Made by a program: the position numbers and the translations under genes
Notes under the pieces: generated by a model
What the model saw: only the letters and a program-made list of their open reading frames with translations
Databases searched by the model: none
What the model was told of the DNA's origin: nothing
Part shown: in pieces, positions 1,229 through 52,498 of the stretch
How positions within the stretch are numbered: the first letter of the stretch is position 1
Layout of the letters: each line of letters opens with the position of its first letter
Assembly (NCBI RefSeq): GCF_027594745.1
Contig: NZ_CP110854.1
Coordinates: 1,308,241 to 1,372,240 of the forward strand
Reading direction: 5' to 3'
DNA: 64,000 nucleotides
Source of the DNA: Saprospira grandis
GTDB lineage: Bacteria > Bacteroidota > Bacteroidia > Chitinophagales > Saprospiraceae

Positions 1229-1302
1229 GCTTCCATAGCTCAGTTGGTTAGAGCATCTGACTGTTAATCAGAGGGTCCCTGGTTCGAGCCCAGGTGGGAG
1301 CG
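1229..1302 (+). tRNA. tRNA-Asn (anticodon GTT)
   Basis: Cloverleaf folded by hand: 7-bp acceptor stem (GCTTCCA/TGGGAGC with one G-T wobble), D-arm GCTC/GAGC, anticodon stem TCTGA/TCAGA with loop CTGTTAA, T-arm GGTTCGAGCCC. CCA is not encoded. Confidence 0.85.
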
Positions 1303-3711: not shown

Positions 3712-3875
3712 TTTTGGGGCTTCCCCTGCGGCCTTCGGCCTTGGGTCGGGCTGTGTCGCAGCTCGCAGGCTTGCTCGGCCCTGCAGCGCTTCGCGCTTTG
3801 GTCTGGCCCTTCGGGCCACTGCTATCCATCCCTAAGCCAAGTCGCTTCGCTCCTTTCTACTGCTTGGAGCAGAGG
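3712..3875 (+). repeat. Intergenic repeat module A, forward
   Basis: TTTTGGGGCTTCCCCTGCGGCCTTCGGCC...CTCGCAGGCTTGCTCGGCCCTGC...GGTCTGGCCCTTCGGGCCACTGCTATCCATCCCTAAGCC. Confidence 0.85.
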
Positions 3876-4062
3876 GCTAGGCACAAAAAAATGAGCAGCT
3901 ACTTTCCCCAAAGTAGCTGCTCTGTAATCCCCATGATTTACCCCAAACTTAATTGAAGTTAGAGCAAGTATTTCCTTTTGCTCTATTGCAAATTTAAGGG
4001 AGAGAGTAATTAGTTTTCTAGGCCATTTAGGCAAAACTAAAAATTAGGTATTTCACTTAGAC

Positions 4063-7000
4063 TTAATTTTGCTCTAGTTTTTGGAGATAAGCGACCACCT
4101 CCATGGCCATATTGTCTAGTTCGGGCTGCTGGGCCTCTACAGCATTGCGCTCTTCTAGCCAAGCAAAGTATTTCTCCTCAAAAGCCTTCATCTCGTTAAT
4201 GTCCAAATAATAGAAGTTGATATTGATATGCGCCGGAGCATTGATGCTAAAGACCGCATGCATAAGATCCTGGAAATCTTCATTTTGGAAACGAGAGGGC
4301 CAAGAGGGCAAAATGATACTCATATCCAGAGAGTAGAAGTCATGGCGAACGTCTAGATTGGGGCGTTCCTCCAAAAAGAACTGAATATTGCTTTGCAAAG
4401 GAATAGCTCCTGATTTAAAGCTATAGACATAGGCCACAATATCGTCAATTTGTTCTTTGGCTCCTTCTCGAGTATAAAAGATTTCTGGACAGCGGGCAAT
4501 CTTACGATCATACTCCTGCAACACCACTTGATAGCTTTCGCCATCCTCTAGGGTTTCAATAATGAAGTTGTCCTTTTTGCTGGCCAATAAATCTAGTTGG
4601 TTACTGAGGTTGCGTTGCTCTTCAAAAGCACCAAACTCATAGCTTTCTAGCAAAGGACGATCTTGGTCATTAACTAGACGGAAAGCGTGGCGATCTTGGG
4701 CCTGCGGACGAAGCAAAATATGCTCTACCACATGCATTCCCTCCGTTTGGTGGTTAATGCGGGCAAAAAACTTAATCAGCTTTTCCAACTCTACCTGAGC
4801 AGCCAAAATACTGCTATATTCTCTAATCTTCACGCAACCCAAATCGGGATTCCCCTTATAGTAAACACTATAGATTTCCTCCCCATCACGCTCTTCCAAA
4901 AGGGCCAAATAGTTATAGCTAAATATACCATTGGCCAAAAGGTCTTGCATGAGCTCGTCCAAATCCTGCCCTCTAAAGATAAACTTAGAACGGTAGTCTA
5001 GGGTTTCTGGCAAACGCTCAGGAGCGGGACCAGGATCTTCTCCCTTCTCAATTTTCTCCAAACGCTCTAGCTCTGCATCTAAATCTATGTAACCCTCAGG
5101 CAACATAGGCGACTCTAGCTGAATGAGGTCGTGAAAATTATCCACTCCTTCTATATGCGCATCTTCATTAAAGATGCGGACCAAAGATTCATTACCTCCC
5201 TGATTGAGATTAAGCAACAAACAAACCCGACGTTCTAGACCTGCCACCTCCGTTTCTAAAAGCTCCAACATCTTTTTGGTAAACTTGATGTTGGTTTCGG
5301 CAATGGCTTCAGTCAAGGTTTCGGGCAAATCCAGGTCCTTCAGCATTTTTTTCGTCTGCTCCTTGGCCACATCCTCCGGATCACGGTAATTGAGGGCCAT
5401 AGAAAAGGCATCTCTCTGATGCTGACGAAGGCTGTAATTCTCCCGCAATTGCTTGTACTGCTGGCGAATCAAATCTCTTTCTACCTCTTCTTTATATTGC
5501 TTAATGAGCGGCTCAAATAGCTCGGCCCACTCTAGCTCTTGCTCATAAATGACATTATAAAGGGCCATGTAGTTGAATCCACGGCTACGGTTTCGACTAA
5601 TGTCGACATAGTTGCGCAAAAACTCCAATTTGGCATTGACTAGCTCATGCTCTGGGCTCTTGGCCTCCCCTTCCGACATATCATAGCCCACATACTGGCT
5701 TACTTTCAATAAAAAGTCGGTGGTAAAACGCTCGCCAAAACGAGCCAGTAAATGGTCCAGTAAACGGTTGCGGCGCTCCACAAAAGGGTCAAATTCCTCT
5801 ACCGTTTCTTCTAGCTTTTTCAAGCGAGCCTCATTGTCCTTGCCCTTCAAGATGTATTGCATCTCGGGCATGTTCTCTGGCAACTGAGAGAAATAACTAC
5901 GGTCCAAATCGCTATCCAATGAAAAGAATTTCTTCACATTGCCCAATTGGGCCAAGTAGTTGGCCATCAGCTGCTCAAAAAAGGATAAATACCCTCTGAG
6001 CTGCTTAATCATGCCCAAACGCTCCCGTGTAGGACGCACACTATTGGGCAAACCAAATGGACTCAAACCATAGGTGGCCGGAAAAGTATTTTGTACCGAG
6101 TAGTAACGCTTAATATCATCTTCCTTCAATACCGAGGGATAATCCTTCTCATTATAGAGCATCTTCATCTGATAGCCCTTCTTATACCGAGCATAAAGCG
6201 AGTACAACAACTGACTAGCCGTGTTGAGGTCCAAATCATAGTTCAAACTCCCCCGCTGAAAACGGATCGGATAAGCATCGGTTTTCCAACGCGCATCAAT
6301 AGTGTCCATATCCAAAACAGGATAGGTCTTTTCCGCAATCCGAATCACATCGCCCTCTACGGGAAAACCATCTTTTTCTACCCGAAAATAATTGATGCGG
6401 CGAACGCCCTCAATATCCGAGATGATTTCAATAATCTTAGAAATATAAACCTCCCGCTTCATCGCTCTGAGGTCCTCTTTCTTAATGATACCATGCACCG
6501 GCACGGGCCCATCAAAAATCTCTTCAATGGCATAGCCCTCTTCCAAAAGTTCATCAATGGTATGGTACTGAATAGAAGGCGTGAGATGCTCCTCCAACTT
6601 GAAGAGAATTTCAGCCAATACTTCTTCTGCCACCACATCCGAACTAATGTCCAAATCGGTATAAATAATAATCTTATCTACATCCAAGACCTCAATGGCC
6701 TCCAAATCTTCACAAAGGTTGCGATGCGCAGCAAATAAAGCATACACCTCTCGCTTAATCTCTTGCAAACGCTGCGGCTGACGAGCACTATCACTCACCT
6801 GCAACAAAATTCGATACAAGCCCTTAATGCCTTGCAAATGATCCCGCACAGGCTCCACCCAAGCATTCTTCACGCCATTCACCCGATCAATAATCAAGCG
6901 GCGATAGTCCTCTATGGTTACCGGATTTGTCGGCAATATCTCCGAGGCATCATAAAAGGTGTTGTTCAAAGCCTGCCGACGGCCCTTCCCTCTAGCATTC

Positions 7001-7221
7001 AATAAATCCTGAATGCTAAAATCCGTGCGAAAGCCCAAATCGGCCAAAGCATAACAAAGCTGTTCCAAAATGGTCACCCCAGGATCATGGGTGTTGTAAT
7101 CGGTCCAAACTTTACCCGATAGTTCTTGCACCATCTGCAAGCCCTCCTCCTTCAAAAAGAAGAAGTCCATACTCTTGTGCGGCGGGGTTTCGCGGAAAAT
7201 CTGAATTGGTTTCTGCGCCAT
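4063..7221 (-). CDS. Large (about 1052 aa) acidic cytoplasmic hypothetical protein with no recognizable domain
   Basis: Long uninterrupted ORF with coding-like composition; no signal peptide, no Walker/TM motifs, E/D/L-rich with coiled-coil-like stretches. Candidate ATG start at 7221 (7233 is TTG). Confidence 0.6.
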   Translation of the reverse strand: MAQKPIQIFRETPPHKSMDFFFLKEEGLQMVQELSGKVWTDYNTHDPGVTILEQLCYALADLGFRTDFSIQDLLNARGKGRRQALNNTFYDASEILPTNPVTIEDYRRLIIDRVNGVKNAWVEPVRDHLQGIKGLYRILLQVSDSARQPQRLQEIKREVYALFAAHRNLCEDLEAIEVLDVDKIIIYTDLDISSDVVAEEVLAEILFKLEEHLTPSIQYHTIDELLEEGYAIEEIFDGPVPVHGIIKKEDLRAMKREVYISKIIEIISDIEGVRRINYFRVEKDGFPVEGDVIRIAEKTYPVLDMDTIDARWKTDAYPIRFQRGSLNYDLDLNTASQLLYSLYARYKKGYQMKMLYNEKDYPSVLKEDDIKRYYSVQNTFPATYGLSPFGLPNSVRPTRERLGMIKQLRGYLSFFEQLMANYLAQLGNVKKFFSLDSDLDRSYFSQLPENMPEMQYILKGKDNEARLKKLEETVEEFDPFVERRNRLLDHLLARFGERFTTDFLLKVSQYVGYDMSEGEAKSPEHELVNAKLEFLRNYVDISRNRSRGFNYMALYNVIYEQELEWAELFEPLIKQYKEEVERDLIRQQYKQLRENYSLRQHQRDAFSMALNYRDPEDVAKEQTKKMLKDLDLPETLTEAIAETNIKFTKKMLELLETEVAGLERRVCLLLNLNQGGNESLVRIFNEDAHIEGVDNFHDLIQLESPMLPEGYIDLDAELERLEKIEKGEDPGPAPERLPETLDYRSKFIFRGQDLDELMQDLLANGIFSYNYLALLEERDGEEIYSVYYKGNPDLGCVKIREYSSILAAQVELEKLIKFFARINHQTEGMHVVEHILLRPQAQDRHAFRLVNDQDRPLLESYEFGAFEEQRNLSNQLDLLASKKDNFIIETLEDGESYQVVLQEYDRKIARCPEIFYTREGAKEQIDDIVAYVYSFKSGAIPLQSNIQFFLEERPNLDVRHDFYSLDMSIILPSWPSRFQNEDFQDLMHAVFSINAPAHININFYYLDINEMKAFEEKYFAWLEERNAVEAQQPELDNMAMEVVAYLQKLEQN

Positions 7222-7303
7222 AGGTCTTATCAATCTAAATAGGGCTCTGCCCTTGGGGTTCTGTTCCGTTCTAAAATATCTTGCGGTAGTGTGTGCTTGT
7301 CTC

Positions 7304-7486
7304 CTATTTGTCTAGTTGCTGCGGGGGGCTCTCTGCATGCATTTGGGCATTGGCCTGCTCATGAATCTTTCCAATCAACTCATATACTTCATTAAATGGC
7401 CGCTGGCCCAAGGCCTGCAAAATCTTATTGATTTCTTGCATATCTAGCTGCAATAGCAGGGGTTTTTCTTCTTTTGTCTTGCCCAT
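7304..7486 (-). CDS. Small (about 60 aa) hypothetical protein immediately upstream of, and co-oriented with, the 1052-aa gene
   Basis: ORF 7304-7552; internal ATG (MGKTKEEK...) at 7486 preferred because an AT-rich promoter-like sequence lies upstream. Confidence 0.3.
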   Translation of the reverse strand: MGKTKEEKPLLLQLDMQEINKILQALGQRPFNEVYELIGKIHEQANAQMHAESPPQQLDK

Positions 7487-7591
7487 CAGTCTCTTTTTTT
7501 GTAAAAGCCTAGCGAATTTAAGAAAAAAAGCGCTTTGTGCCAATTTATACAAATTTGATTACAGATGTAGGGATTCTTTTCACCTTTTTAT

Positions 7592-7750
7592 TTTTTTGGG
7601 GCTGCCCCGCCTTGCAGGCGGGTCGGGCTGTCTCAGGGCTCGCAGGTCTGCTCGGCCCTTCGCAAAAAAGCTGCGCTTTTTTGCTCGGTCTGGCCCTGCG
7701 GGCCACCCTTGCCCATCCCTCAGCCATTAAAAGCTGGCTGCGCCAGCCCC
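7592..7750 (+). repeat. Intergenic repeat module A, forward
   Basis: TTTTTTTGGGGCTGCCCCGCCTTGCAGGCGGGTCGGGCTGTCTCAGGGCTCGCAGGTCTGCTCGGCCCT...GCCCATCCCTCAGCC plus a GCTGGCTGCGCCAGCC hairpin. Confidence 0.85.
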
Positions 7751-7755
7751 GCCCC

Positions 7756-7790
7756 AACAAAAAAGAGCCGCAGTTGAATACTCAACTGCG
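7756..7790 (-). terminator. Rho-independent terminator of the Fe-S oxidoreductase gene
   Basis: GAGCCGCAGTTGA-ATACTCAACTGCGGCTC hairpin with a T-run on the minus strand. Confidence 0.55.
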
Positions 7791-7814
7791 GCTCTTCGCG
7801 CTTATCCACTCCGC

Positions 7815-9182: not shown

Positions 9183-9397
9183 GTTAAACTATTATTTTAA
9201 TTGATTAATGGTGTCAGTGATTTATAGACAATAACTAAAGTCAAATCTTGACTCTAGGCAGTCTAGTCCAAAGACAAAATTAAATTTTTTATGCTAATTT
9301 TATAATTCCCCTCTCAGAACTTTCTTCCGATTTGCTTATTTCTCCCCTGCCATTTGGGCCAAAAGCGCCCTTTTCCCCTCTCTTTTGGCCCAGCAGT

Positions 9398-9537
9398 ATT
9401 GGCCCAGCGCTGCGAAGGGGGGGCCGCAAGGCCAGACCCAGGCGCTGAAAGCGCCGCAGGGCCGAGCAGACCTGCGAGCCCCGCAGCATAGCGGCGGCCG
9501 ACCTAGGCGAAGCCTAGCCGGCCGCGGGCCCCAAAAT
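9398..9537 (-). repeat. Intergenic repeat module A, reverse, truncated
   Basis: ...GCCGCAGGGCCGAGCAGACCTGCGAGCCCCGCAG...GGGCCCCAAAATC. Confidence 0.8.
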
Positions 9538-9546
9538 CATCTAATT

Positions 9547-11733
9547 ATGAAAGCCATCTATTTCCTTATTTTTCTGCTGCCTAGCGGCCTCTACGCTCAA
9601 AATACTAAGCTGAATATCGACCTTTTTCGCCTTTGGCAAGAGGGCGGAACGCAAAGCGTGGAGCTGATCGTTCAGGGCGAGCCGCAAGCGATAAAAAAAC
9701 TGGCCCAACAAACCGATAGCCAGTATAAATATGGCCTAAATGATTTGGCCGCCCTCTCTATTCCCTTGCAAAAACTGCCCATTTGGTGGGAACATCCCGC
9801 TATTCAGGGCCTACAAGCCCAGCGCCTTAGCCCCCAATATTTTTTTGAACAAGATAGCCTGATGCTGGCCAATAATAACGCCCGAGCCGCTCATGAAGGC
9901 TGGGGTTTGCCCCAATCTTTTGAGGGCGAAGGCGTGCTTGTCGGTATTATTGACGACGGCTACGAATGGCAGCATCCCGACTTCTGGCAGCCCAATGATA
10001 GCAGTAGCCGATTTCTTAGCATCTGGGACCAAGACTATTTTTCGCCCAACTTTTTTATGGGCCAATATGGCTATGGCAGCTATTGGAATAAAGCCCAAAT
10101 TGATTCGGGCCTGATCGCTCAGCCCCCAGGCGAACATGGCTCGCATGTGCTAGGCACCGCCGCCGGAAATGGACTGGCCGCCCAAAAATATAAGGGCATT
10201 GCCCCCAAAGCCGAGCTCTTGGCCGTGGCCCTAAGCGAAGATGGACAGTTTTTGCCCCGCTTTGTGGATGCCGTCCACCATATTTTTCAAGAAGCTAAGC
10301 GATTGGGAAAAGCCTGCGCCATTAACTCTAGTGTGGGGGCCTATTATGGCTCGCATGATGGCCAAGACTTGTATACGGCTATGATTGAAGCGATGCTAGA
10401 GGAGGAAAACGGCCGAGCATTGATTCAAGCAGGCGGCAATGCTCGGCAGGCAAAAATGCACTGGCAAAAGGCCCCAGCAGATAGCGGCTGTCTGGCCTTT
10501 TTGCCCCTCAATGGCCAACTATTTCGCAGCTCGGCCTTTATTGATACAAGCGACTGGTCGCAGCTACATTGGCAATTTGAGCTCAAGGGGAGTCAGGGGC
10601 AAAGGCTGGTTCTTAGTCGCCCCTTTTCCCCTGCCGACCTGCCGCCGCATAGCCCCCTACCCGCCCAAAGAATAGACACTATATATGTAGGTCCGCAAGG
10701 CCCCCTGATTTTAGTGCAATATTTGGCCGAATGGCAGGGCTGCCTAGAGTGGTCCTTTCAGTTGCAGGGAAACAATCTGCAAAATCAACAGCTTTTTTTG
10801 CATTGGAGCGGGGCAGGCAAGGTGGATATTTGGAGCCATGAGCGCAATATGGGCCTTTCTGATATTGTTCTGCAGGCCAATGTTCCTCATTATATTTCGC
10901 CCGACAACCAACAAACCCTAGCCGCTTATTGGACCTGCTCACCCAAGGTCATCACAGTGGCGGCCTACCAAAACCGAGACCAACTGCATAATTATGCTGG
11001 CGATACGGTGTCTTTGGCCTATGCAGGCTTTCCGATCTTTGGCATTGCCGATTTTTCTAGCCTCGGCCCTAGTCGAACGGGCCTACAAAAGCCCGATTTA
11101 ACAGCCCCAGGGGGGCAGGTCCTTTCGGCAGGCAGTCTGGCCGCCCTACAAAATGCCAGAGCCAACAACTACCCTTATTTGGACCAAGGCGGCTGGCATG
11201 TTTCGGCCAAAGGGACCTCTATGGCGGCGCCTATGGTTACGGGGGCCGCTGCCCTCTATTTTCAATGCCAACCCCAGGCCGATTGGGCCGAGCTCAAGGC
11301 CGCCCTGCTACAATCGGCCCACAAAGATGCTTGGGTATATAGCGCTGGCGCTCCGCCCAATATAGATTGGGGAGCGGGCAAACTAGATGTGCAGGCGCTT
11401 TTGCAAAACTGCCTAAAGCCCGGCTGTCTAGACAGCAACGCCCTCAACTTTATGCCCAACGCTTGGGTAGAAGATGGCTCTTGCTACTACCCTAGTTCCA
11501 CAGATTACTTGGGCGAACAAGGGCCAAAGCTCTGGCCCAATCCCTTTAGCGCCCAACTGCAAATAGAATTGCCTCAGGCGGGCCAGCTTTGCTTTTATAA
11601 TGTGTTGGGCCAAGAAGTGGCTCGCTATATTTTGCCTGCTGGCCCAAAAACAATTCCTACCGAAGATTGGCCCAAGGGCAGCTACTTCTGGAAATGGGAA
11701 AATGGACAGAGCGGAAAGCTCATTAAGCAATAA
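9547..11733 (+). CDS. Secreted subtilisin-like serine peptidase (S8 family) with a T9SS C-terminal sorting domain
   Basis: Asp/His/Ser triad motifs (GIIDDG, HGSHVLGTAAG, GTSMAAPMVTGAAAL), signal peptide MKAIYFLIFLLPSGLYAQ, and a C-terminal WPNPF...QLQIEL...beta-sandwich typical of Por/T9SS CTDs. The ORF track starts at 9385 inside a repeat; ATG at 9547 is chosen. Confidence 0.85.
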   Translation: MKAIYFLIFLLPSGLYAQNTKLNIDLFRLWQEGGTQSVELIVQGEPQAIKKLAQQTDSQYKYGLNDLAALSIPLQKLPIWWEHPAIQGLQAQRLSPQYFFEQDSLMLANNNARAAHEGWGLPQSFEGEGVLVGIIDDGYEWQHPDFWQPNDSSSRFLSIWDQDYFSPNFFMGQYGYGSYWNKAQIDSGLIAQPPGEHGSHVLGTAAGNGLAAQKYKGIAPKAELLAVALSEDGQFLPRFVDAVHHIFQEAKRLGKACAINSSVGAYYGSHDGQDLYTAMIEAMLEEENGRALIQAGGNARQAKMHWQKAPADSGCLAFLPLNGQLFRSSAFIDTSDWSQLHWQFELKGSQGQRLVLSRPFSPADLPPHSPLPAQRIDTIYVGPQGPLILVQYLAEWQGCLEWSFQLQGNNLQNQQLFLHWSGAGKVDIWSHERNMGLSDIVLQANVPHYISPDNQQTLAAYWTCSPKVITVAAYQNRDQLHNYAGDTVSLAYAGFPIFGIADFSSLGPSRTGLQKPDLTAPGGQVLSAGSLAALQNARANNYPYLDQGGWHVSAKGTSMAAPMVTGAAALYFQCQPQADWAELKAALLQSAHKDAWVYSAGAPPNIDWGAGKLDVQALLQNCLKPGCLDSNALNFMPNAWVEDGSCYYPSSTDYLGEQGPKLWPNPFSAQLQIELPQAGQLCFYNVLGQEVARYILPAGPKTIPTEDWPKGSYFWKWENGQSGKLIKQ

Positions 11734-13399: not shown

Positions 13400-13572
13400 T
13401 TTTGGGGCTGCCCCTGCGGCCTTCGGCCTTGGGTCGGGCTGTGTCGCAGCTCGCAGGTCTGCTCGGCCCTGCGGCGGCTTTGCCGCCTGGGTCTGGCCTG
13501 CGGCCACTGCTGTCCATCCCTCAGCCGCGTCGCTACGCTCCTTTGCGGCCCTTCGGGCCTGTAGGAGGCAGA
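13400..13572 (+). repeat. Intergenic repeat module A, forward
   Basis: TTTTGGGGCTGCCCCTGCGGCCTTCGGCC...CTCGCAGGTCTGCTCGGCCCTGCGGCGGCTTTGCCGCC...CATCCCTCAGCCGCGTCGCTACGCTCCTTTGCGGCCCTTCGGGCC. Confidence 0.85.
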
Positions 13573-13577
13573 GGGGT

Positions 13578-14021: not shown

Positions 14022-14267
14022 TTTAAAAATAGGTATTTTAAGATTAGAAAATTCAAAAAGAACAACCCTAGAGGTTATACTTTGTTTTCTGCAAAGGTAG
14101 GCTTTTCTGTCTGCAAAGCCAGTGAGCTAAAATACAGGGGCAGAAAAACAGTTGTCTTGAGGGGAGTTAAACTAAATTATTGTTCAAGAAATAACTAATT
14201 GTCAAACAGACTGTTAAGCAAATATGGAAAAGCTTAAAATATAATTTGGGTTAAATTTTCTTAAGTT

Positions 14268-14440
14268 TTGCAGGGCCGAAGGCCCGCAAAGGAGCGTAGC
14301 GACGCGGCTGAGGGATGGACAGCAGTGGCCGAAGGCCAGACCCAGGCAGCTTTGCTGCCGCAGGGCCGAGCGAACAGCGAGCTGCGACACAGCCCGACCC
14401 AAGGCCGCAGGCCGCAGGGGCAGCCCCAACAAAAAATAAA
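14268..14440 (-). repeat. Intergenic repeat module A, reverse
   Basis: GGGCCGAAGGCCCGCAAAGGAGCGTAGCGACGCGGCTGAGGGATGG...GGCAGCCCCAACAAAAAA. Confidence 0.85.
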
Positions 14441-19743: not shown

Positions 19744-19906
19744 TTTTTTTTGGGGCTGCCCCTGCGGCCTGCGGCCTTGGGTCGGGCCATTGCGCAGCTC
19801 GCAGGTCTGCTCGGCCCTGCACAGGCTGCGCCTGTTTGGTCTGCCGCCTGCGGCGGCCCTGCTACAGCCCCTCAGCCGATAGGCTGGGGCTGCGCCCCAG
19901 CCCCAT
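19744..19906 (+). repeat. Intergenic repeat module A, forward
   Basis: TTTTTTTTGGGGCTGCCCCTGCGGCCTGCGGCCTTGGGTCGGGCCATTGCGCAGCTCGCAGGTCTGCTCGGCCCTGC...CCCTCAGCC plus a GGCTGGGGCTGCGCCCCAGCC hairpin. Confidence 0.85.
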
Positions 19907-19986
19907 AAGGTATATGGCTGCGCCATATATTTAGTAAAAAAATTGTCCGCCCCAAGATAAGCCCCCAATCAAATTTATTTGCCAAC

Positions 19987-21309: not shown

Positions 21310-24300
21310 ATGCAAAAAAAAGCAACAGAAGCGCAGTTCTTCTTTTCTCAACTGCTCAAGCTACAGCAAGTAGAGCAACCTTTGGGGGCCAAATATCAGG
21401 CATTAGATGCCCTTTTGGTCCAGCTATTTTTACAATTGACCGAAAAAGAGCGCCTACATTTTAGTGATCGCTCGGCACGGATTGCCTTTTTATCTCATAA
21501 GGAGGACCTCAGTCGCTCGGTTCAATGGCGCATTTACCAAATTATTAAGCGGGCCAAATGGATCCGCAGAAAAGAGCTGGAGCCTACGGCTGGCCAATAC
21601 GCCTCGGCCCTAAAGACCGTGGCCTTTGCCATTGCAGCCCTTTGTCATGTTCCTTTGCCCGAAGAATTGCGGGCCTATTTGCCCAGCGATGAGGAAGAAG
21701 AGCAGGAAGACCGCAACCCCTTCCCTATTAAAGAAGGCATTATTGAGGAGCTCAAAGTGGTGGTTTTGCAAATAGATGCCGAGCAAGAGCTCATCATCTG
21801 CCAACCTTATGGAGAGGACTATACCGACCAGCTCAGGCTGCGTTATAATGTGCCCGAAATCAATGCGCAGTTTAACTCGACCATTGAGCTGATGCAAGAT
21901 CATTTTCCCGCTGGGGCCATTTTGCAATTGCTGCAAGTCTTGGTAGAAGAATCGGGAATTTTGCTGCCCAAGCGCATCATCTTAGAGCCCGACTACCTGG
22001 TTGATGTGACCAGCATTGCCGAATGTTTTCAGCCACAGGGCGCTTCGCCCTACCTCTTTTTGCTCAAAAAGTTTTCGGCCTATGAAAATAGCCTACCTTT
22101 GATGCTGGGAAATATTGCCAACCGCTTTTTGGACCTCTTGAGCAAGAACCCCAAGCTGAGCTTTCAGGAAGAATTTAAGAAGCTCTTTAGCCTTAATCCC
22201 TTGGGCTTTGCCGACTTTAAGGATACCGATATTCGCAAGACCTATCATGAGGCCAAAAACCACTTTATCAACCTTCAGCATATTATCCTCAATGAGTTTC
22301 CCAAGCAGGGCATCGAGCGAGAGCGCATTTTGTTAGAGCCCTCTTTTTACTCTGCCCTTTATGGGATTCAGGGACGTTTGGACCTTTGGCAGCCGCCAGC
22401 AGAAGGCGATGATAAGGCATTGATTGTGGAATTGAAGAGTGGCAAAACCTTTATGCCCAATAAGTACAACCTCAATCATAATCACTATGTACAGACCTTG
22501 CTCTATGGATTGCTGACCAAATCGGTTTATCCTAGCTATAAGAGTTTGGCCCACATTCTTTACTCCAAATTGCAAGAAAAACCGCTGCGTCTAGCCCCTA
22601 GCACGCAGTTTAAGGAGGATGAAGCCTTGGCCCTTCGCAACCAGATGGTGATGATGGAGCGACAGCTGGCCCAATTGGACCAAAAATCACTGGAAGAATA
22701 TGGCCTTTTGCATCAGTTAGGGCCTGCCATTATGCCCAAAGCTAGCGGCTATACCGCCAGAGGATTGGAAGAATTTGAGGCCTGCTTTTCTAAGCTAAGC
22801 GAGCTAGAACGCCGCTACTTTATTGCCTTTTGTAGCTTTATTGCCAAAGAACAAATTTTGGCCAAAACAGGAGTAGAAGGAAATGAACGCGCCAATGGAC
22901 AAGCGGGGCTATGGCTAAGCGAAAGAGCCGATAAAGACGAACATTTTGAGCTTTTGGCGGGACTAGAACTACTAGAAAACAATAGCGAGCAAGAACCCCC
23001 TATTCTCCGCTTTAAGCGAACGGAAAATACCAACCCCTTGGCCAATTTCAGACAGGGCGATATTGCTATTTTGTATCCCGAAATGGGCCAGGATGACAAT
23101 GTCTTGAAGCATCAGATTTTTAAGGGCTCTATTTCTCAAATCAATGCCGAAGAGCTTTGTTTCAAGCTTTACTCTCCCCAATGTAGCGGCAGCGTTTTTG
23201 AGGCGGCCAAAAGCTGGAGCTTAGAACACGATATGCTCGATAAGGGCTTTACGGTTCAGTATCAATCGCTCTTCAAATTCATGAATTTCCATCCGGCCAA
23301 GCGACAGCTTTTATTGGGCCAAAGGGCCCCGCAAAAAAGCAGCGCTCCCCAAAATCGGAGCTTTATGCAGCCCTATTTGGGCGAAGACCAAAAGAGGATC
23401 CTCAACAAGGCCTTGGATGCCCAAGACTACTTTTTGTTGGTAGGCCCTCCGGGCACGGGCAAAACCAAGTTCATGCTGGCCCAAATGGTCGAATATCTCC
23501 ACCGAAACAGCCAAGAAAACATCTTGCTTTTGGCCTATACCAACCGAGCTGTAGATGAAATTTGCGAAGCCATTGAGGAAGTGGGTATTGATGATTATCT
23601 GCGGATGGGCAGCCGCTATTCTTGCGATCCTCGCTTTGAACATCGGATGTTTTCGGTGCAAACAGAAGCCCTAGCTAGCCGCAAAGATCTGCGAGCGACC
23701 ATCGACAAGCATCGGGTATTTGTCTCTACGGTTTCTAGCATGCTCAACCGTCCGCTTTTGCTCAAGCTCAAGCAATTTAATACCGTCATTATTGATGAGG
23801 CATCACAGATTTTGGAGCCCATGTTGCTCGGTTTGCTTCCGCATTTTCAGCGCTTTGTGCTTATTGGCGACCATAAGCAGTTGCCGGCGGTAGTTTTGCA
23901 GGACAAAGAGCAGTCGGCGGTTAAAGATGAGTTGCTCCAAAGCATTGGCTTGCGCAATCGCCGCAACTCCCTCTTTGAGCGCTTGTTTGAGCAGGCCCAA
24001 AAAGAAGGCTGGACCCATTGCTACGATCAATTGCAGCATCAGGGGCGGATGCATGCCGAAATTGCCCGCTTTCCCAGCCAATTTTTCTATGATAATAAGT
24101 TGTTGGAACTACCAGAAGACAATCCGATTGGCGACTGGCAGCAGCAGCCCCTACCCTTCCGTCCGATGCCCCAGGCCTCTGCTTTGGAGCAGCTTTTGGC
24201 CCAACATCGTCTGCTCTTTATTCCTAGTCAATCGGATTATCAGGGCAACAGCAAAACCAATGAGGAAGAAGCCATTCGGGTGGGCGAATTGGTCCATGCT

Positions 24301-24693
24301 TTTCGGAATTTATACGAGCAGCAGGGCGGCGGTTTTGCCCCAGAGGACCTTGGCATCATCACGCCTTTTCGGGCGCAGATTGCCCAGATTCGCCATGTTT
24401 TGGCCCAATATAATATGGGTTATGAGCAGTGTACCATTGATACGGTGGAGCGGTATCAGGGCGGGGCGCGCAAAATCATTCTCTTGTCTTTGGCCATCAA
24501 TATGAGTTATCAATTGCCGGCCATTGTTTCTCTTTCCGATGATGAGCAGGTAGACCGCAAGCTCAATGTGGCCCTTACTCGAGCTCGGCAGCAGCTGGTG
24601 GTTTTGGGCAATCCCAAGCTATTGGCCAATGATCCTCGTTATGCGGCCCTAATGGCCTGGATTAAGGAGCGGGGCGGCTATTTTACGCCTTAG
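21310..24693 (+). CDS. Nuclease-helicase fusion: N-terminal RecB/Cas4-like PD-(D/E)xK nuclease plus C-terminal SF1 Upf1/Dna2-family helicase (Dna2-like / Nhi-like architecture)
   Basis: Nuclease motifs GRLDLW ... IVELKSGK ... YVQTLLY (D, ExK, QxxxY). Helicase motifs: Walker A LVGPPGTGKT, motif II VIIDEASQ, ITPFRAQ, TIDTVERYQGGARKIILLSLA and ALTRARQQLVVLG (Upf1-like motifs V/VI). Confidence 0.75.
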   Translation: MQKKATEAQFFFSQLLKLQQVEQPLGAKYQALDALLVQLFLQLTEKERLHFSDRSARIAFLSHKEDLSRSVQWRIYQIIKRAKWIRRKELEPTAGQYASALKTVAFAIAALCHVPLPEELRAYLPSDEEEEQEDRNPFPIKEGIIEELKVVVLQIDAEQELIICQPYGEDYTDQLRLRYNVPEINAQFNSTIELMQDHFPAGAILQLLQVLVEESGILLPKRIILEPDYLVDVTSIAECFQPQGASPYLFLLKKFSAYENSLPLMLGNIANRFLDLLSKNPKLSFQEEFKKLFSLNPLGFADFKDTDIRKTYHEAKNHFINLQHIILNEFPKQGIERERILLEPSFYSALYGIQGRLDLWQPPAEGDDKALIVELKSGKTFMPNKYNLNHNHYVQTLLYGLLTKSVYPSYKSLAHILYSKLQEKPLRLAPSTQFKEDEALALRNQMVMMERQLAQLDQKSLEEYGLLHQLGPAIMPKASGYTARGLEEFEACFSKLSELERRYFIAFCSFIAKEQILAKTGVEGNERANGQAGLWLSERADKDEHFELLAGLELLENNSEQEPPILRFKRTENTNPLANFRQGDIAILYPEMGQDDNVLKHQIFKGSISQINAEELCFKLYSPQCSGSVFEAAKSWSLEHDMLDKGFTVQYQSLFKFMNFHPAKRQLLLGQRAPQKSSAPQNRSFMQPYLGEDQKRILNKALDAQDYFLLVGPPGTGKTKFMLAQMVEYLHRNSQENILLLAYTNRAVDEICEAIEEVGIDDYLRMGSRYSCDPRFEHRMFSVQTEALASRKDLRATIDKHRVFVSTVSSMLNRPLLLKLKQFNTVIIDEASQILEPMLLGLLPHFQRFVLIGDHKQLPAVVLQDKEQSAVKDELLQSIGLRNRRNSLFERLFEQAQKEGWTHCYDQLQHQGRMHAEIARFPSQFFYDNKLLELPEDNPIGDWQQQPLPFRPMPQASALEQLLAQHRLLFIPSQSDYQGNSKTNEEEAIRVGELVHAFRNLYEQQGGGFAPEDLGIITPFRAQIAQIRHVLAQYNMGYEQCTIDTVERYQGGARKIILLSLAINMSYQLPAIVSLSDDEQVDRKLNVALTRARQQLVVLGNPKLLANDPRYAALMAWIKERGGYFTP

Positions 24694-28842: not shown

Positions 28843-28929
28843 GATTTGGGAAATCTGTTTATTATCTCTGTAGGTTAGAACCTCATAAAGCTAATCCTTT
28901 GAATACACAGTATACTGAATAGTTGGGGA

Positions 28930-29072
28930 TTTTGGGGCCTCCTGCCTGCGGCAGGCGCTACGTTCCGCAGCTCGCTATTCGCTCGGCCCTGCGGCAGCAA
29001 AGCTGCCTGGGTCTGGCCCTTCGGGCCACTGCTGCACATCGCTAGGCCAGGCTGGCCTTCGGCCAGCCTTCT
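28930..29072 (+). repeat. Intergenic repeat module A, forward
   Basis: TTTTGGGGCCTCCTGCCTGCGGCAGGCGCTACGTTCCGCAGCTCGCTATTCGCTCGGCCCTGCGGCAGCAAAGCTGCC...GGCCCTTCGGGCCACTGCTGCACATCGCTAGGCCAGGCTGGCCTTCGGCCAGCC. Confidence 0.85.
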
Positions 29073-29198
29073 AGATCCAAACAGATTTGGCCCTTTCTAC
29101 AGACTTTTGTAATTTTTTAGGCCCTTAGGGCTAACCATCAGCCCCTTTGGGGTATTACTCATTGAGCCCACAAGCTTACCCCCAGAAACCTCTTTTTT

Positions 29199-32526: not shown

Positions 32527-32555
32527 TTGATTTTTCTTTAGACGATCTATTTTGG

Positions 32556-32726
32556 AGAGGACAGGCGGCGAAGCCGCCGCAAAGGAGCGCAGCGACGCGG
32601 CTGAGGGATGGATAGCAGTGGCCCGCAGGGCCAGACCGAAGCGCTTTAGCGCTGAAGGGCCGAGCAGACCTGCGAGCTGCGGCACAGCCCGACCCGCCCG
32701 CAGGGCGGGGCAGCCCCAAAAAAAGA
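32556..32726 (-). repeat. Intergenic repeat module A, reverse, lying between the TPR gene stop and the OMP gene start
   Basis: GGCGGCGAAGCCGCCGCAAAGGAGCGCAGCGACGCGGCTGAGGGATGGATAGCAGTGGCC...GGCCGAGCAGACCTGCGAGCTGCG...GGGCAGCCCCAAAAAAAG. Confidence 0.85.
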
Positions 32727-43360: not shown

Positions 43361-43578
43361 TATATCATTGCGAAGCAATACCATTGTTGCTGTAGGTTTC
43401 AACCTAAGTTCAATCCATGAGGGTTTTAACCCTCATCCATATATCATTGCGAAGCAATACCATCTGGCTGTAGGTTTCAACCTAAGTTCAATTCATGAGG
43501 GTTTTAACCCTCATCCATATATCATTGCGAAGCAATACCATCTGGCTGTAGGTTTCAACCTACAGTTAAAAGGGCCGA
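43361..43578 (-). repeat. Tandem array (78 bp x about 2.7) of module B (three palindromic hairpins)
   Basis: Units ATATCATTGCGAAGCAATACCATCTGGCTGTAGGTTTCAACCTAAGTTCAATyCATGAGGGTTTTAACCCTCATCCAT repeated at 43363, 43441 and 43519. Confidence 0.9.
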
Positions 43579-43712
43579 AGGCCCGCGGCTGAGGGATGGA
43601 CAGCAGTGGCCGAAGGCCAGACCCAGCCGCTGAAGGCGGCGCAGGGCCGAGCGAACAGCGAGCTGCGAAACAGCCCGACCCAGCCAAAGGCTGGGGCAGC
43701 CCCAAAAAAAGA
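43579..43712 (-). repeat. Intergenic repeat module A, reverse, directly abutting the module-B array
   Basis: GGGCCGAAGGCCCGCGGCTGAGGGATGGACAGCAGTGGCC...GGCCGAGCGAACAGCGAGCTGCGAAACAGCCCGACCC...GGGGCAGCCCCAAAAAAAG. Confidence 0.85.
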
Positions 43713-43768: not shown

Positions 43769-46700
43769 CTATTTGGCCAAAACGAAAGGCAATTGTAGGC
43801 GGCCATCCTTACCTTCTAGTTGAAGGATATATTGGCCAGCGGGCAAATCGTTGAGGTTAAAGTTGTATTGTTGTTGGATGCTTGCGGTTTGCGTCCAAAC
43901 CACTTGGCCCAAAGCATTGAAGATGCGAATCTGCTGCTCGCCTTCTAGGGCTTGCTCCAATTGGAGTTGGAACTGACCGTTGTTGGGGTTGGGGAAGAGC
44001 TTAATGTTTTGCTCATTCCAAGTGGTAATGCTGGTGCTACAGTCAATGAAAGCAATGTTAATGCTAGCGCTGTTGCTACAAGCACCAGCTGTAGTATAAG
44101 TAACACTGTGGTTAGCATTGATTGGGCTATTATCAAAGTCAATTGTTCCAGTATTAGGATCAAGAACTAGGCCTGTACTACTACTGAAGGTTCCGCCTGA
44201 AACCATTGTAGTTGGCAAAGTGGTAGCTTGAGTTCCTAGGCAGAAAGTTGTGGTATCATAGACAAAGCTAGCATCATCACGAGCATTAAGTACGAGCATA
44301 ACGGTATCTACATCGGGGCAATTCCCTTGTGTAGTATAAGAAATCACATAAGCACCCGCTTGGCTATTGGCGAGGTCAATTGTACCGCCAAAGCTCTCGA
44401 TAGCGATACCAGGCGTAGAGCTAAACAAACCGTTATTGCTGGCATTGATTTGCGCAATGGGGTTTGTTCCATCTAGGCAGTAGCTGCTCATGGCATAGCT
44501 AATATCTGCGGTATCGGCCGCATCGATATTGATGACAAAAGTATCGAGATCGGCACAAGCGTTGGGCGTAGTATAGACGATAGCGTGAAGACCAGCACTA
44601 GAGTTATCTACATTGATTGCACCAGTAGTAGGATCGAGATCAACTACATTAGAGGGGCTGCTAAAGCTACCGCCTTGGGTAGCTGCGATAGTAGGCGTAA
44701 CAGTACCCGCACCAAAGCAATAATTAGCCATAGGGTAGCTAATGTCAGCGGTGTCGGCATCTGCAATAGCTACAGCAACAGTGTCATAATCCATACAGCT
44801 CATGTTTGGACCAACACCATAAATAACGCTATAGGCTCCAATTGCAGAAGCACCAGCAGAAATCTCACCAGTTAGGCTATCAATATTAAGGCCTGCAGTG
44901 CTCATATAAGTACCGCCAAGGTCACCATTGTTAGTCACAGCAACTTGTCCAGAGTTTTGGCAATAAGATGCAAAAGGATAGCTAATATCAGCGGAGGGGC
45001 TCTCCGCATTTTGAGTGATATTTAGGACATAAGCCCCTGTGTTTGTACTGTAACCTTCTACCATTACATAAATGGTGTCGAGGTAATTAACAGGCGTGCC
45101 CAAAATTTCTGAGCGCGTGCCACAGTTATCGTCATTGCCCGCAATCTGGCTGATTCCAGCATCATAGATACGGAGATAAGTATCGTAGCTAGAGCCACAA
45201 AGTGAGGCGTCAATAGTGGTCACACAAGGATCAGTGATAATCAGTTGATACCAAACATCGGCAGAAGAGTTGGCGATAAAGTCGGTATAACAGCTAGCGG
45301 TACTGCTTGTATCATTAAAAGTAGCCGTAGATACCATAATAGGATCTGTGGGCGTATCTCCATTGACCGCACAAAGGGTTGTAAAGCTAATCATGCTCCA
45401 GGCAGAAGTATCGCCAGGGGCACAAACTTCACGGACATAAGCCTCATAAGTTGTATTATCCATAAGACCCGTTTGGTTGCTACTGTTGGTATTGATTACG
45501 GCAGTAGTTCCTGTGGGGGTATTTCCAGCCATGACTACTTCTACTTGGAAGTTAGAGCCAGTTCCCGTCCAGTTCAAGTCGGCAGAAGTGGCGGTAATAT
45601 TGCTAGCGGCTAGGCCAGAAACGGCCAAACAAGTAGGCAAGTCATCAAAGGCTACATCATCAATTAGGATATCGTTGTAGAAAGCCGTTCCAGCATCTTC
45701 GACTACAGTAAAGCGGGCCTGTACAGGGCCAGTAATCGTAAAGACACTCAAGTCGACCATCACCTCATGCCAGTTTGGAAAATCTTGGCGGATAGTGTCT
45801 ACAGTGGTCCAGTTGGCCCCATCATAGATATCAATAATCAAAGTATTGTTATCGCCGGGGTTGGTGGTATTGTTAGAGTATACCCAAAAAATAAGGCCTG
45901 GGCGAGTCAAGGCCGTAATATCTACCTGAGGCGTCTCTAGAGTAGAGATTTGGCTAGCTCCAGTTGGAGTAGAACCATCAATCCAAGCATAATTTCCAGC
46001 ATTTCCAGTATGGTCGCCAGCATTTCCAGCGGCATAACCTGCAGCCGTACTATACTTCCAAGCCTCAGAACCACTCTCGGTCCAGCAGTTAGGCGTAGCA
46101 GAACCATCAAAGGTTTCTAGATAAGGAGCGACAAAGGTATTACAAGCTGTTGTAAAGCTCAAAGGAGCTGTATAAGCTGCAGTATCACCTACCCCACAGA
46201 ATGGGCGCACATAGACATCATAGTCCGTAGCAGCCATTAGTCCAGTTAGATTAAATGGAGTAGTTATGGCCGATACCATAGTTCCTGCACCTTGAGTAAA
46301 GCCCGTAGGGCCATACTCTACGATATAAGAACCTGCAGAAACCGCATTATTGTCGGTCCAATCCAAATCCACAGCAGTAGGCATAACATTAGAAGCAGTC
46401 ATATTGGCTGCAGTCAAACAAGTGGGCAAGTTGGCAAAGCTAATGTCATCTAGCAAGATGTCATTGTAAAAAGCATCAGTAGGACAATCTTCTACTACCG
46501 TAAAGCGTGCCTGTACATTACCCGTAATCGTATAAACAGAGAGGTCAACTTTAAACTCCACCCAGTCAATGCTATCCTGACGGAAAGTATCCACATTGTT
46601 CCAACTGGCCCCATCAAAAAAGTCAATGATCAAGGTGTTGTTATCTCCAGGGTTATTGGTATTATTACTAAAAACCCAATAAGTCAAAGTAGGGGTCGTT

Positions 46701-48292: not shown

Positions 48293-48342
48293 CCGCAATT
48301 GGACCAATAAAAAAAGCGCTGCTAAACGAAGTTTAGTCAGCG

Positions 48343-48490
48343 CTAGGGCCGCAAGGCCCTAATTGGCTTAGGGATGGATAGCAGTGGCCCGAAGGGCCAG
48401 AGCCAGGCGCTGAAAGCGCCGCAGGGCCGAGCAGACCTGCGAGCTGCGCCACAGCCCGACCCGACCAAAGGGAGGGGAAGCCCCAAACCC
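48343..48490 (-). repeat. Intergenic repeat module A, reverse (right arm of an inverted pair)
   Basis: GGGCCGCAAGGCCC...GGCTTAGGGATGGATAGCAGTGGCCCGAAGGGCCAGAGCC...GGCCGAGCAGACCTGCGAGCTGCG...GGGGAAGCCCCAAA. Confidence 0.85.
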
Positions 48491-52276: not shown

Positions 52277-52428
52277 TTTTTTTGGGGCCTCCCCTCGCCC
52301 TCAAGGGCTCAGGGCGCTACGTTCCGGGGCTCGCTACTCGCTCGGCCCTTCGCCAGCAAGCTGGCTCGGTCTGGCCCTGCGGGCCACCCCTACACATCGC
52401 TAGGCCATGATGGCCTTCGGCCATCCTT
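52277..52428 (+). repeat. Intergenic repeat module A, forward
   Basis: TTTTTTGGGGCCTCCCCTCGCCCTCAAGGGCTCAGGGCGCTACGTTCCGGGGCTCGCTACTCGCTCGGCCCTTC...CATCGCTAGGCCATGATGGCCTTCGGCCATCC. Confidence 0.85.
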
Positions 52429-52498
52429 TAAAAGCGGTTAAAGCCCAAACGCTAAACAACGCCCTTAGCTCCACCCAATTTAAAACGCCTACTTAGCT

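What the first reader, a model, noticed from the sequence alone, without database searches (positions are those of the whole stretch)
4063..7552. Orphan two-gene module of a ~60-aa protein plus a 1052-aa acidic domain-less protein, bracketed by repeats
Between repeat copies at 3712-3875 and 7592-7750 lie only two co-oriented genes: a small ORF (7304-7486) followed 70 bp later by a 1052-aa protein (4063-7221). The large protein has no signal peptide, TM helix, nucleotide-binding or catalytic motif that I can recognise. It is strongly acidic with coiled-coil-like stretches, and has a conserved-looking N-terminal block (WTDYNTHDPGVTILEQLCYALADLGFRTDF). Proteins of this size lacking any recognizable domain are uncommon. 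The tight bracketing by repeats on both sides is what gives the locus an accessory, cassette-like look, comparable to the nuclease-helicase and LRR loci.
Basis: partly seen in the sequence, partly recalled or inferred. Interest (0 to 1): 0.6.

Follow-up and report, generated by a model that had tools for sequence, protein, structure and literature searches.

The report
Stray Cis12 baseplate gene pair
The "domain-less" 1052-aa protein is Cis12, a baseplate wedge protein of the phage-tail-like contractile injection machine of Saprospira, encoded with a conserved 60-aa partner away from the machine's other genes; the flanking repeats are a genome-wide filler, so this is an ordinary family in an unusual place, not a new cassette.

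Summary
Both ORFs and both repeat copies are at the stated coordinates. The interpretation mostly falls.

- **Large protein (4063-7221, minus strand).** It is a clear homologue of structurally solved Cis12/Afp12 baseplate proteins: Algo12 E=1.5e-86, Anabaena Cis12 2e-74, Pvc12, Afp12. An AlphaFold model (pLDDT 84) has these same chains as its top five Foldseek hits. More distant homologues sit in canonical contractile-injection-system (CIS) clusters, in the order cis11, cis13-like, cis12, tape measure, ATPase.
- **60-aa ORF (7304-7486).** It is real (9 synonymous vs 1 non-synonymous codon difference against strain DSM 2844). It belongs to an unannotated family of at least 353 clusters. In 49 of 62 testable metagenome loci it lies directly upstream of cis12, often inside full CIS clusters.
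- **Location.** In Saprospira the pair has left the main cluster. On a Saprospira-like 2.4-Mb contig the cluster ends at cis11/cis13-like, and the pair lies about 9 kb away. In this window no other CIS gene was found within about 57 kb on one side or about 10 kb on the other.
- **Repeats.** They belong to a dispersed, S. grandis-specific family with 12 copies in 64 kb, so they are not cassette ends.

Verdict: a new member of a known kind. The conserved small partner is the modestly interesting part.

The parts
4063..7221 (-). cis12: 1052-aa baseplate wedge protein (gp6-like plus gp7-like), stop codon included
   Evidence: PDB phmmer gives Algo12 1.5e-86, All3315 2.2e-74, SalCis12 6e-41, Pvc12 2e-20 and Afp12 1e-16. 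AF2 model pLDDT 83.8. Foldseek top 5 hits are all Cis12/Pvc12/Afp12-type baseplate chains. Against DSM 2844 there are 172 synonymous vs 25 non-synonymous codon differences.
5560..7221 (-). Cis12 residues 1-554: conserved N-terminal region that aligns to the modelled wedge-forming part of Algo12 and All3315
   Evidence: Aligns to Algo12 6-560 and All3315 15-589. 39-59% identical to Cis12 proteins inside CIS clusters. Holds most of the invariant columns of alignment A3.
4834..5559 (-). Cis12 residues 555-796: variable, most acidic insert (pI 4.47), predicted helical bundle plus acidic linker
   Evidence: Not alignable outside the Saprospira group. Carries 13 of the 25 non-synonymous differences against DSM 2844. 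Occupies the position of the All3315 extension (roughly 590-1159) that Weiss et al. (PMC8894136) show forms the membrane connector. Helices H553-669.
4066..4833 (-). Cis12 residues 797-1052: conserved C-terminal alpha/beta domains with the EG(M/F)H(V/L)VEHILLRP and SxILPxWPxRFQNxDF motifs
   Evidence: 32-43% identical to the C-termini of CIS-cluster Cis12 proteins. Matches All3315 1203-1278 (domain E 2.5e-08) and Algo12 782-828.
7304..7486 (-). 60-aa Cis12-coupled small protein (helix-turn-helix hairpin), stop codon included
   Evidence: Conserved upstream of cis12 in L003, L004, L005, L006 and L008. 9 synonymous vs 1 non-synonymous codon against DSM 2844. At least 199 homologues and at least 353 50%-identity clusters. 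Lies directly before cis12 in 49 of 62 metagenome loci. Found inside canonical CIS clusters such as L015. AF2 predicts H16-27 and H31-51.
7222..7303 (-). 82-nt spacer between the small gene and cis12
   Evidence: Read from the sequence. In other lineages the two genes overlap or are under 30 nt apart.
3893..3922 (-). Terminator-like hairpin (13-bp stem plus T run) downstream of cis12
   Evidence: Consensus scan. This is a pattern match only.
7762..7797 (-). Terminator-like hairpin (16-bp stem plus T run) ending the upstream Fe-S gene. It marks the 5' boundary of the unit.
   Evidence: Consensus scan. This is a pattern match only.
3712..3880 (+). Copy of the dispersed S. grandis intergenic GC-rich repeat. 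It flanks the module; no functional link is shown.
7592..7760 (+). Copy of the same dispersed repeat. It flanks the module; no functional link is shown.

Best explanation
The window comes from Saprospira grandis or a very close relative (98% protein identity to strain DSM 2844).

**Large gene.** It encodes Cis12, one of the two proteins (with Cis11) that form the six wedge heterodimers of the baseplate of a phage-tail-like contractile injection system. In Saprospiraceae this system is the membrane-anchored T6SS subtype iv, historically seen as 'rhapidosomes' and used to kill prey.
- The conserved N-terminal 550 residues would build the wedge core bundle with Cis11.
- The variable acidic insert and the C-terminal domains would sit on the lateral, exposed side of the baseplate. 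That side is where relatives attach fibres or connect to a membrane.

**Small gene.** The 60-aa gene upstream encodes a helical-hairpin protein that is genetically coupled to cis12 across many Bacteroidota CIS loci. The most likely role is a Cis12-specific assembly partner: a chaperone or a small wedge-associated subunit, probably acting as a dimer, since about a third of homologues are tandem duplications.

**Location.** In the Saprospira lineage this two-gene unit has been displaced from the main CIS cluster and is transcribed on its own.

**Shown:** homology, fold, gene-pair conservation, displacement, purifying selection.
**Inferred:** incorporation into the Saprospira baseplate, the role of the insert, and the role of the small protein.
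For: **Identity**
- phmmer against PDB: Algo12 1.5e-86, All3315 (Cis12) 2.2e-74, SalCis12 6e-41, Pvc12 2e-20, Afp12 1e-16.
- The AF2 model (pLDDT 83.8, pTM 0.77) has these baseplate chains as its top five Foldseek hits.

**Context of homologues.** Fulvivirga (L002), Lewinella (L007) and two MAGs (L009, L015) place the homologue after sheath, tube, VgrG, PAAR, gp25, Cis11 and a 250-300-aa Cis13-like protein, and (in L007, L009 and L015) before the tape measure and AAA ATPase.

**Saprospira-type main cluster**
- It ends at cis11/cis13-like with no cis12 (L011, L012).
- On the same 2.38-Mb contig, the small gene plus cis12 (66% identical to the window protein) lie about 9 kb away in convergent orientation.

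**Small gene**
- Conserved in all six Saprospira loci.
- 49 of 62 metagenome loci have a Cis12 N-terminus starting within -60 to +300 nt downstream.
- The pair moves as a unit in independent rearrangements (L030, L034, L037, L091).

**Selection.** 172 synonymous vs 25 non-synonymous codon differences for cis12, and 9 vs 1 for the small gene.

**Literature**
- Cis11-Cis12 heterodimer wedges, and the gp7-like part as the hotspot for fibres and superstructures (PMC8894135).
- A Cis12 extension forms the membrane connector (PMC8894136).
- Aureispira T6SSiv kills prey, S. grandis has a CIS cluster, and rhapidosomes are likely T6SSiv (bioRxiv 10.1101/2024.01.29.577165).
Against: - I could not view the main CIS cluster of S. 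grandis itself. A second, cluster-embedded cis12 in this genome is therefore not excluded.
- No other CIS gene was found in the 64-kb window or in the 6 kb beyond its left end, so linkage gives no support here.
- The small protein has no match in any solved CIS structure.
- It is absent within 10 kb of cis12 in L002, L007 and L009.
- In Aureispira it sits after dnaX, far from cis12. It is therefore not an obligatory neighbour.
- Its structure prediction is only moderate (pLDDT 69).
Confidence: 0.8

Rival explanations
1. The gene is an extra cis12 paralogue that has been exapted, together with the small protein, for a function outside the contractile injection system. The real structural cis12 would lie in the main cluster.
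For: - It sits in a housekeeping neighbourhood, unlinked from any CIS gene.
- Orphan pairs recur in unrelated lineages (L030, L091).
- The S. grandis main cluster was not inspected.
Against: - The two Saprospira-type main clusters that could be seen have no cis12 of their own (L011, L012).
- All the invariant Cis12 columns are kept.
- The N-terminal wedge-forming region is the most conserved part: 58-59% identity to Aureispira and 50% to a cluster-embedded Cis12.
- Only one S. grandis protein appears among the top 120 homologues.
Confidence: 0.1
2. The small protein is a regulator of cis12 or CIS expression or firing (for example an anti-sigma-like or DNA-binding helical hairpin), not an assembly partner or structural subunit.
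For: - It is a tiny two-helix protein with no structural match.
- In Aureispira it is separated from cis12.
- In a Saprospira-like genome an ECF-type sigma gene directly follows cis12.
- It is not seen in solved baseplates.
Against: - It is tightly, often overlappingly, coupled to the cis12 start codon inside structural operons. That is typical of stoichiometric partners.
- There is no HTH or other Pfam hit.
- Tandem-duplicated forms (27 of 73 loci) fit a dimeric binding module.
Confidence: 0.15
3. The locus is a mobile or defence-type accessory cassette delimited by the two repeat copies.
For: - Repeat copies lie in the same orientation on both sides.
- The neighbours of the pair differ between Saprospira species.
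Against: - There are 12 copies of the repeat in 64 kb, scattered in both orientations in many intergenic regions.
- The repeats are absent from related loci that carry the same pair.
- There is no PADLOC hit.
- No integrase or transposase is adjacent.
- The protein is a structural baseplate component.
Confidence: 0.02

Closest known systems
Algo12 (Alg12) of the Algoriphagus machipongonensis extracellular CIS (PDB 7AEB/7AEF)
   Same: - Best sequence match: E=1.5e-86, covering residues 4-554 plus C-terminal motifs.
- Foldseek TM-score 0.70 on the target.
- Same gp6-like wedge part followed by a lateral part (PMC8894135).
   Different: - The Saprospira protein has a different middle region: a 240-aa acidic helical insert.
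- It belongs to a membrane-anchored T6SSiv lineage rather than a released eCIS (literature).
- It is encoded away from cis11.
- It is preceded by a small partner gene that the AlgoCIS paper does not describe.
Cis12 (All3315) of the thylakoid-anchored CIS of Anabaena PCC 7120 (PDB 7B5H)
   Same: - E=2.2e-74; it is the top Foldseek hit at 1.3e-43.
- It has a large insert at the same position between the conserved N- and C-terminal parts.
- Same gene order, cis11-cis13-cis12, as the Bacteroidota clusters.
   Different: - The Anabaena insert is about 500 aa and contacts the thylakoid membrane. The Saprospira insert is about 240 aa, is unrelated in sequence, and its contact partner is unknown.
- No small partner gene is reported there.
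Pvc12 / Afp12 (Photorhabdus PVC, Serratia AFP; PDB 6J0N, 6RAO) and, more distantly, phage T4 gp6/gp7
   Same: - Homologous N-terminal region (E=2e-20 and 1e-16).
- Same overall fold class.
- Same role as the wedge partner of the baseplate-J-like protein (Afp11/Cis11).
   Different: - Only about 14-19% identity in the structural alignments.
- No acidic insert.
- The genes are always described inside the afp/pvc operon.
T6SS subtype iv of Aureispira sp. and 'Ca. Amoebophilus asiaticus' (Lien et al. preprint; Bock et al. 2017 as cited there)
   Same: - Closest organismal context. The Aureispira Cis12 orthologue is 58% identical over the N-terminal half and is also unlinked from CIS genes within 10 kb.
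- S. grandis is reported to carry a related CIS cluster.
   Different: - In Aureispira the small gene is not next to cis12; it follows dnaX.
- Whether the published Aureispira cluster lists its own cis12 could not be read, because Table S1 is held only as an image.

Membership tests
Cis12 / Afp12 / Pvc12 baseplate wedge proteins of contractile injection systems | Significant sequence homology to structurally defined members over the N-terminal wedge-forming region | tested here: met
   phmmer against PDB: Algo12 1.5e-86, All3315 2.2e-74, SalCis12 6.2e-41, Pvc12 2.2e-20, Afp12 1.3e-16.
Cis12 / Afp12 / Pvc12 baseplate wedge proteins of contractile injection systems | Predicted fold superposes on solved Cis12-type chains | tested here: met
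   The AF2 model has pLDDT 83.8. Foldseek ranks 1-5 are 7b5h_AD, 7aeb_A (TMt 0.70), 9qgl_a, 6j0n_P and 6rao_J.
Cis12 / Afp12 / Pvc12 baseplate wedge proteins of contractile injection systems | Gene lies in a CIS cluster next to cis11 (baseplate-J-like) | tested here: not met
   No sheath, tube, VgrG, gp25, Cis11, TMP or Cis15 homologue was found in the 64-kb window or in the L003 extension. The feature is met by homologues in L002, L007, L009 and L015. This is a contextual feature, not one that defines the protein.
Cis12 / Afp12 / Pvc12 baseplate wedge proteins of contractile injection systems | The same genome encodes the rest of the machine and lacks another cis12 | tested here: inconclusive
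   The S. grandis cluster is known only from the literature and was not retrieved here. In a Saprospira-like 2.38-Mb contig the main cluster has no cis12, and the pair lies about 9 kb away.
Cis12 / Afp12 / Pvc12 baseplate wedge proteins of contractile injection systems | Physical presence as a Cis11-Cis12 heterodimer in the baseplate | not testable with these tools
   This needs proteomics or cryo-EM of S. grandis T6SSiv/rhapidosomes.
NCBIfam TIGR02243 'putative baseplate assembly protein' | Score above the curated cut-off (155.8 bits) | tested here: not met
   14.5 bits, E=0.0096, covering residues 25-57 only. It shares the N-terminal motif but is not a member of this equivalog model.
Known anti-phage defence systems (PADLOC models) | Match to any defence-protein model | tested here: not met
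   No hit for either protein at E<=0.1.
Repeat-delimited mobile cassette | Flanking repeats specific to the element ends | tested here: not met
   There are 12 copies of the repeat across the window in both orientations. Related loci with the same gene pair have no such repeats.
Any described family for the 60-aa protein (Pfam, NCBIfam, PHROGs, PADLOC, PDB) | Significant match | tested here: not met
   No hits for the single sequence. None for a 35-member profile against PDB, and none for the members scanned against Pfam.

The most novel reading that the evidence does not exclude
The conserved core of about 45 aa (helical hairpin) may be an unrecognised, widespread component of Bacteroidota-type contractile injection systems that works with Cis12, either as a wedge-assembly chaperone or as a small baseplate subunit. 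The pair has repeatedly escaped the main cluster: in Saprospira, in a Cytophagales MAG, and in a further metagenomic lineage. That pattern could reflect a checkpoint in which baseplate completion, and hence the number of loaded machines, is controlled in trans by a separately regulated Cis12 module.
Probability: 0.25. Interest if true: 0.55.

Novelty: new member of a known kind. Interest (0 to 1): 0.33.

Why it matters
**Annotation.** A 1052-aa 'hypothetical protein' (SapgrDRAFT_0933-like) and roughly 1800 relatives with no Pfam domain on record and, where a source names them at all, only 'hypothetical protein' can be named Cis12.

**CIS biology, two practical points.**
- Cluster-based surveys of contractile injection systems will score Saprospira-type loci as lacking a core baseplate gene, because cis12 is encoded elsewhere.
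- A small, highly conserved gene sitting directly before cis12 in many clusters has no family assignment and is not in any solved baseplate model. It is a cheap, testable candidate for a missing assembly factor.

Neither point overturns current understanding of these machines.

Tried and rejected
- **Family libraries.** Pfam, NCBIfam, PHROGs and PADLOC scans of both proteins gave only sub-threshold hints: TIGR02243 at 14.5 bits and phrog_6 at E=0.025.
- **S. grandis main cluster.** I searched 5.8 billion proteins with a Cis11 from the closest cluster-embedded relative (L009). Only 97 hits came back and none was from S. grandis or Aureispira.
- **S. grandis DNA in IMG/VR.** I looked for it via two exact repeat cores. 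There were no matches. The small-protein scan of viral contigs also found nothing.
- **Aureispira Table S1/S2.** I tried to read these to see whether its published cluster lists a cis12. They are held only as images.
- **Small protein.** A PDB search with the single sequence and with a 35-member profile returned only noise (E>0.1). I did not run a fold search on the two-helix model, because a hairpin of that size gives meaningless matches.
- **Natural fusions.** I found no natural fusion of the small domain to Cis12 that could stand in for co-folding.
- **AAA+ hit beyond the window's left edge (L003).** It is FtsH, not Cis15.
- **Promoter scan.** It gave no more sites than shuffled sequence, so no promoter is claimed.
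Full report
**Observation.**
- The window carries an ORF on the minus strand from ATG 7221 to stop 4063-4065, encoding 1052 aa. The mechanical ORF list starts it at a TTG four codons upstream, but homologues begin at the ATG.
- A 60-aa ORF lies at 7304-7486, also on the minus strand. The two are separated by 82 nt.
- The large protein is acidic (pI 4.84, net charge -60) and has no TM-like segment.
- It has no significant hit in Pfam, PHROGs or PADLOC.
- GC-rich repeat copies flank the pair at about 3712-3880 and 7592-7760.
- The physical description is therefore correct.

**The repeats are not cassette ends.**
- Two conserved cores of the element match 8 and 9 places in the window, against about 0 expected. 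Merged, they define 12 copies of an element of about 150-170 nt, in both orientations, roughly one per 5 kb.
- The element is also present in the S. grandis DSM 2844 locus. It is absent from every other related locus, including the freshwater Saprospira loci that keep the same gene pair.
- Bracketing by two copies is therefore what a dense dispersed repeat gives by default.
- Terminator-like hairpins lie just upstream of the unit (7762-7797, ending the preceding Fe-S gene) and just downstream of cis12 (3893-3922). The pair thus looks like an ordinary independent transcription unit (pattern matches only).

**What the large protein is.**
- The closest protein is SapgrDRAFT_0933 of S. grandis DSM 2844 (98% identity). 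About 1800 homologues exist; none of the 120 listed has a Pfam domain on record apart from one faint DUF4332 hit, and those that a source names are called 'hypothetical protein'.
- A sequence search against all PDB chains is decisive:
  - Algo12 of the Algoriphagus eCIS: E=1.5e-86.
  - All3315 (Cis12) of the Anabaena thylakoid-anchored CIS: 2.2e-74.
  - SalCis12: 6e-41. Pvc12: 2e-20. Afp12: 1e-16.
The same block gives the sub-threshold TIGR02243 'baseplate assembly protein' hit.
- An AlphaFold2 model built on 36 homologues is confident (pLDDT 83.8, pTM 0.77). Its five best Foldseek matches in the PDB are exactly these Cis12/Pvc12/Afp12-type chains.
- According to the structural papers, Cis11 and Cis12 form six heterodimers, the baseplate wedges, around the spike.
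  - The gp6-like part of Cis12 builds the core bundle.
  - The gp7-like part is exposed laterally, binds fibres, and is an evolutionary hotspot (PMC8894135).
  - In Anabaena an insert in Cis12 forms the connector to the membrane (PMC8894136).
- The Saprospira protein has three parts:
  - a conserved N-terminal part, residues 1-554;
  - a variable, most acidic insert, residues 555-796 (pI 4.47), predicted as a helical bundle plus linker;
  - a conserved C-terminal part, residues 797-1052.
- The insert sits where All3315 has its membrane-connector extension.
- The insert also carries 13 of the 25 amino-acid differences against DSM 2844.

**Genomic context elsewhere.**
- More distant homologues lie in canonical CIS clusters. 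The order is sheath, tube proteins, DUF5908, CIS_tube, VgrG, PAAR, gp25, a 1250-1310-aa Cis11, a 250-300-aa protein, the homologue, and then in L007, L009 and L015 the tape measure and AAA ATPase. In L002 the next gene is instead an nSTAND1-domain protein.
- This holds in Fulvivirga imtechensis (L002), Lewinella sp. W8 (L007) and two MAGs (L009, L015).
- The 250-300-aa protein weakly resembles the N-terminus of Anabaena Cis13 and Bdellovibrio fibres. That fits the cis11-cis13-cis12 order of Anabaena.
- In contrast, the Aureispira orthologue (58% identical over the N-terminal half) lies between an ion-channel gene and ferritin (L001, L010).
- The Saprospira orthologues lie in varying housekeeping contexts (window, L003, L004, L008).
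- No other CIS gene was found in the 64-kb window or in the 6 kb beyond its left edge. The AAA+ hit there is FtsH.

**Is it the structural cis12 or a spare copy?**
- Two Saprospira-type main clusters recovered through Cis11 (L011, L012) run from the cap protein through sheath, tubes, VgrG, PAAR, gp25 and Cis11 to the Cis13-like protein, and then stop. No cis12, tape measure or ATPase follows.
- On the same 2.38-Mb contig as L011, the small gene plus a cis12 lie about 9 kb beyond the cluster end, in convergent orientation. This cis12 is 66% identical to the window protein and 69-71% identical to the GTDB-labelled Saprospira loci. Unrelated genes separate it from the cluster.
- In the closest relative where both loci can be seen, the displaced gene is therefore the only cis12 found in the roughly 36 kb of that contig that could be read.
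- Against DSM 2844, cis12 shows 172 synonymous and 25 non-synonymous codon differences, so the gene is under purifying selection.
- I could not inspect the main cluster of S. grandis itself. Its existence rests on Lien et al., who classify the Aureispira system as T6SSiv, show that it kills prey, and equate rhapidosomes with it.

**The small gene.**
- It is conserved, with the same start, upstream of cis12 in all Saprospira-type loci: 41-46% identical to the window protein in the four MAG/metagenome loci and 98% in DSM 2844, with 21 invariant positions. Against DSM 2844 there are 9 synonymous and 1 non-synonymous codon differences.
- A profile search finds at least 199 homologues. An exhaustive phmmer finds 353 50%-identity clusters.
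- None of these has a Pfam domain on record or more than a 'hypothetical protein' label. No Pfam, NCBIfam, PHROGs, PADLOC or PDB match exists.
- The core of about 45 residues (L.L...E.N.ILKALG.LPF.EVYELIGKI.EQAN.Q) is predicted as a helix-turn-helix hairpin (moderate confidence).
- 27 of 73 metagenome loci carry a tandem-duplicated version.
- Of 62 metagenome loci with at least 400 nt downstream of the small gene, 49 have a Cis12 N-terminus starting within -60 to +300 nt on the same strand. The two genes often overlap by 4-13 nt. Most of the long loci also carry Cis11, Cis13-like, VgrG, sheath, TMP and ATPase genes.
- The pair stays together through independent rearrangements:
  - divergent from the rest of the cluster (L037);
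  - 3 kb beyond cis13-like (L034);
  - fully orphan in a metagenome contig (L030) and in a Cytophagales MAG among tRNA-synthetase and Obg genes (L091).
- Exceptions exist.
  - The small gene is absent within 10 kb of cis12 in L002, L007 and L009.
  - In the Aureispira lineage it follows dnaX and precedes a conserved 171-aa protein.
- The most economical reading is a Cis12-specific partner, a chaperone or small subunit. This is inference from gene coupling only.

**Conclusion.** The finding resolves into a known family in an unusual genomic arrangement: a displaced cis12 operon of the Saprospira T6SSiv/rhapidosome machinery. It is not a new orphan protein and not a repeat-bounded cassette. The residual novelty is the uncharacterised small partner family and the repeated detachment of the pair from the main cluster.

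Noticed in passing
window 3712-3880, 7592-7760, 9355-9528, 13403-13575, 14256-14428, 19751-19925, 28926-29100, 32550-32718, 43537-43705, 48316-48484, 52283-52455, 60090-60262: A dispersed GC-rich intergenic repeat of about 150-170 nt occurs 12 times in 64 kb. It was found only in S. grandis loci (window and L003). Its RNAalifold consensus has 30 pairs, of which 14 show compensatory double changes, including long-range closing stems. No Rfam family matches at gathering score. It could be a structured REP-like or ncRNA element. Its strand and function are unknown.
   Followed up: partly
L013/L014 10001-10672; also L021, L022, L023: In the Aureispira lineage the small Cis12-partner homologue (46 aa) is not next to cis12. 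It sits directly after dnaX and 16 nt before a conserved 171-aa acidic protein of unknown function, which is 75-80% identical across the loci.
   Followed up: partly
L011 1-14684 and L012 1-14594: Saprospira-type main CIS clusters stop after cis11 and a Cis13-like gene. They lack an adjacent tape-measure gene and AAA ATPase as well as cis12. The machine's genes therefore seem to be split over at least three loci in this lineage.
   Followed up: partly
L090 13609-14459: In the Saprospira-like 2.38-Mb contig, cis12 is followed by an ECF-type sigma-70 gene (191 aa) whose start overlaps the cis12 stop, and then by an 87-aa ORF. This is a possible regulatory link that is absent from the S. grandis window.
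   Followed up: no
L039/L040 about 9186-9449 (L039 coordinates): In one CIS cluster type the small-protein homologue sits right after VgrG and before gp25/Cis11, instead of before a recognisable Cis12. A 1029-aa ORF after Cis11 gave no Cis12 hit.
   Followed up: no
window 4066-4833 (Cis12 residues about 770-950): The Foldseek list includes small YegP/UPF0339-like domains (2k8e, 2k49; TMt about 0.6) matching part of the model, presumably the repeated beta-beta-beta-alpha units in its C-terminal region.
   Followed up: no
window 1229-1302 and 1328-1401: Two adjacent tRNA genes with identical Rfam scores (70.2 bits) lie 26 nt apart. They are probably a tandem duplicate.
   Followed up: no
window 21310-24693, 43769-46996, 9385-11733: Other large genes in the window are ordinary: a 1127-aa AAA_11/AAA_12 superfamily-1 helicase, a 1075-aa fn3/MAM protein with a T9SS sorting domain, and an S8 peptidase with a weak, sub-threshold match to the T9SS sorting domain.
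   Followed up: no
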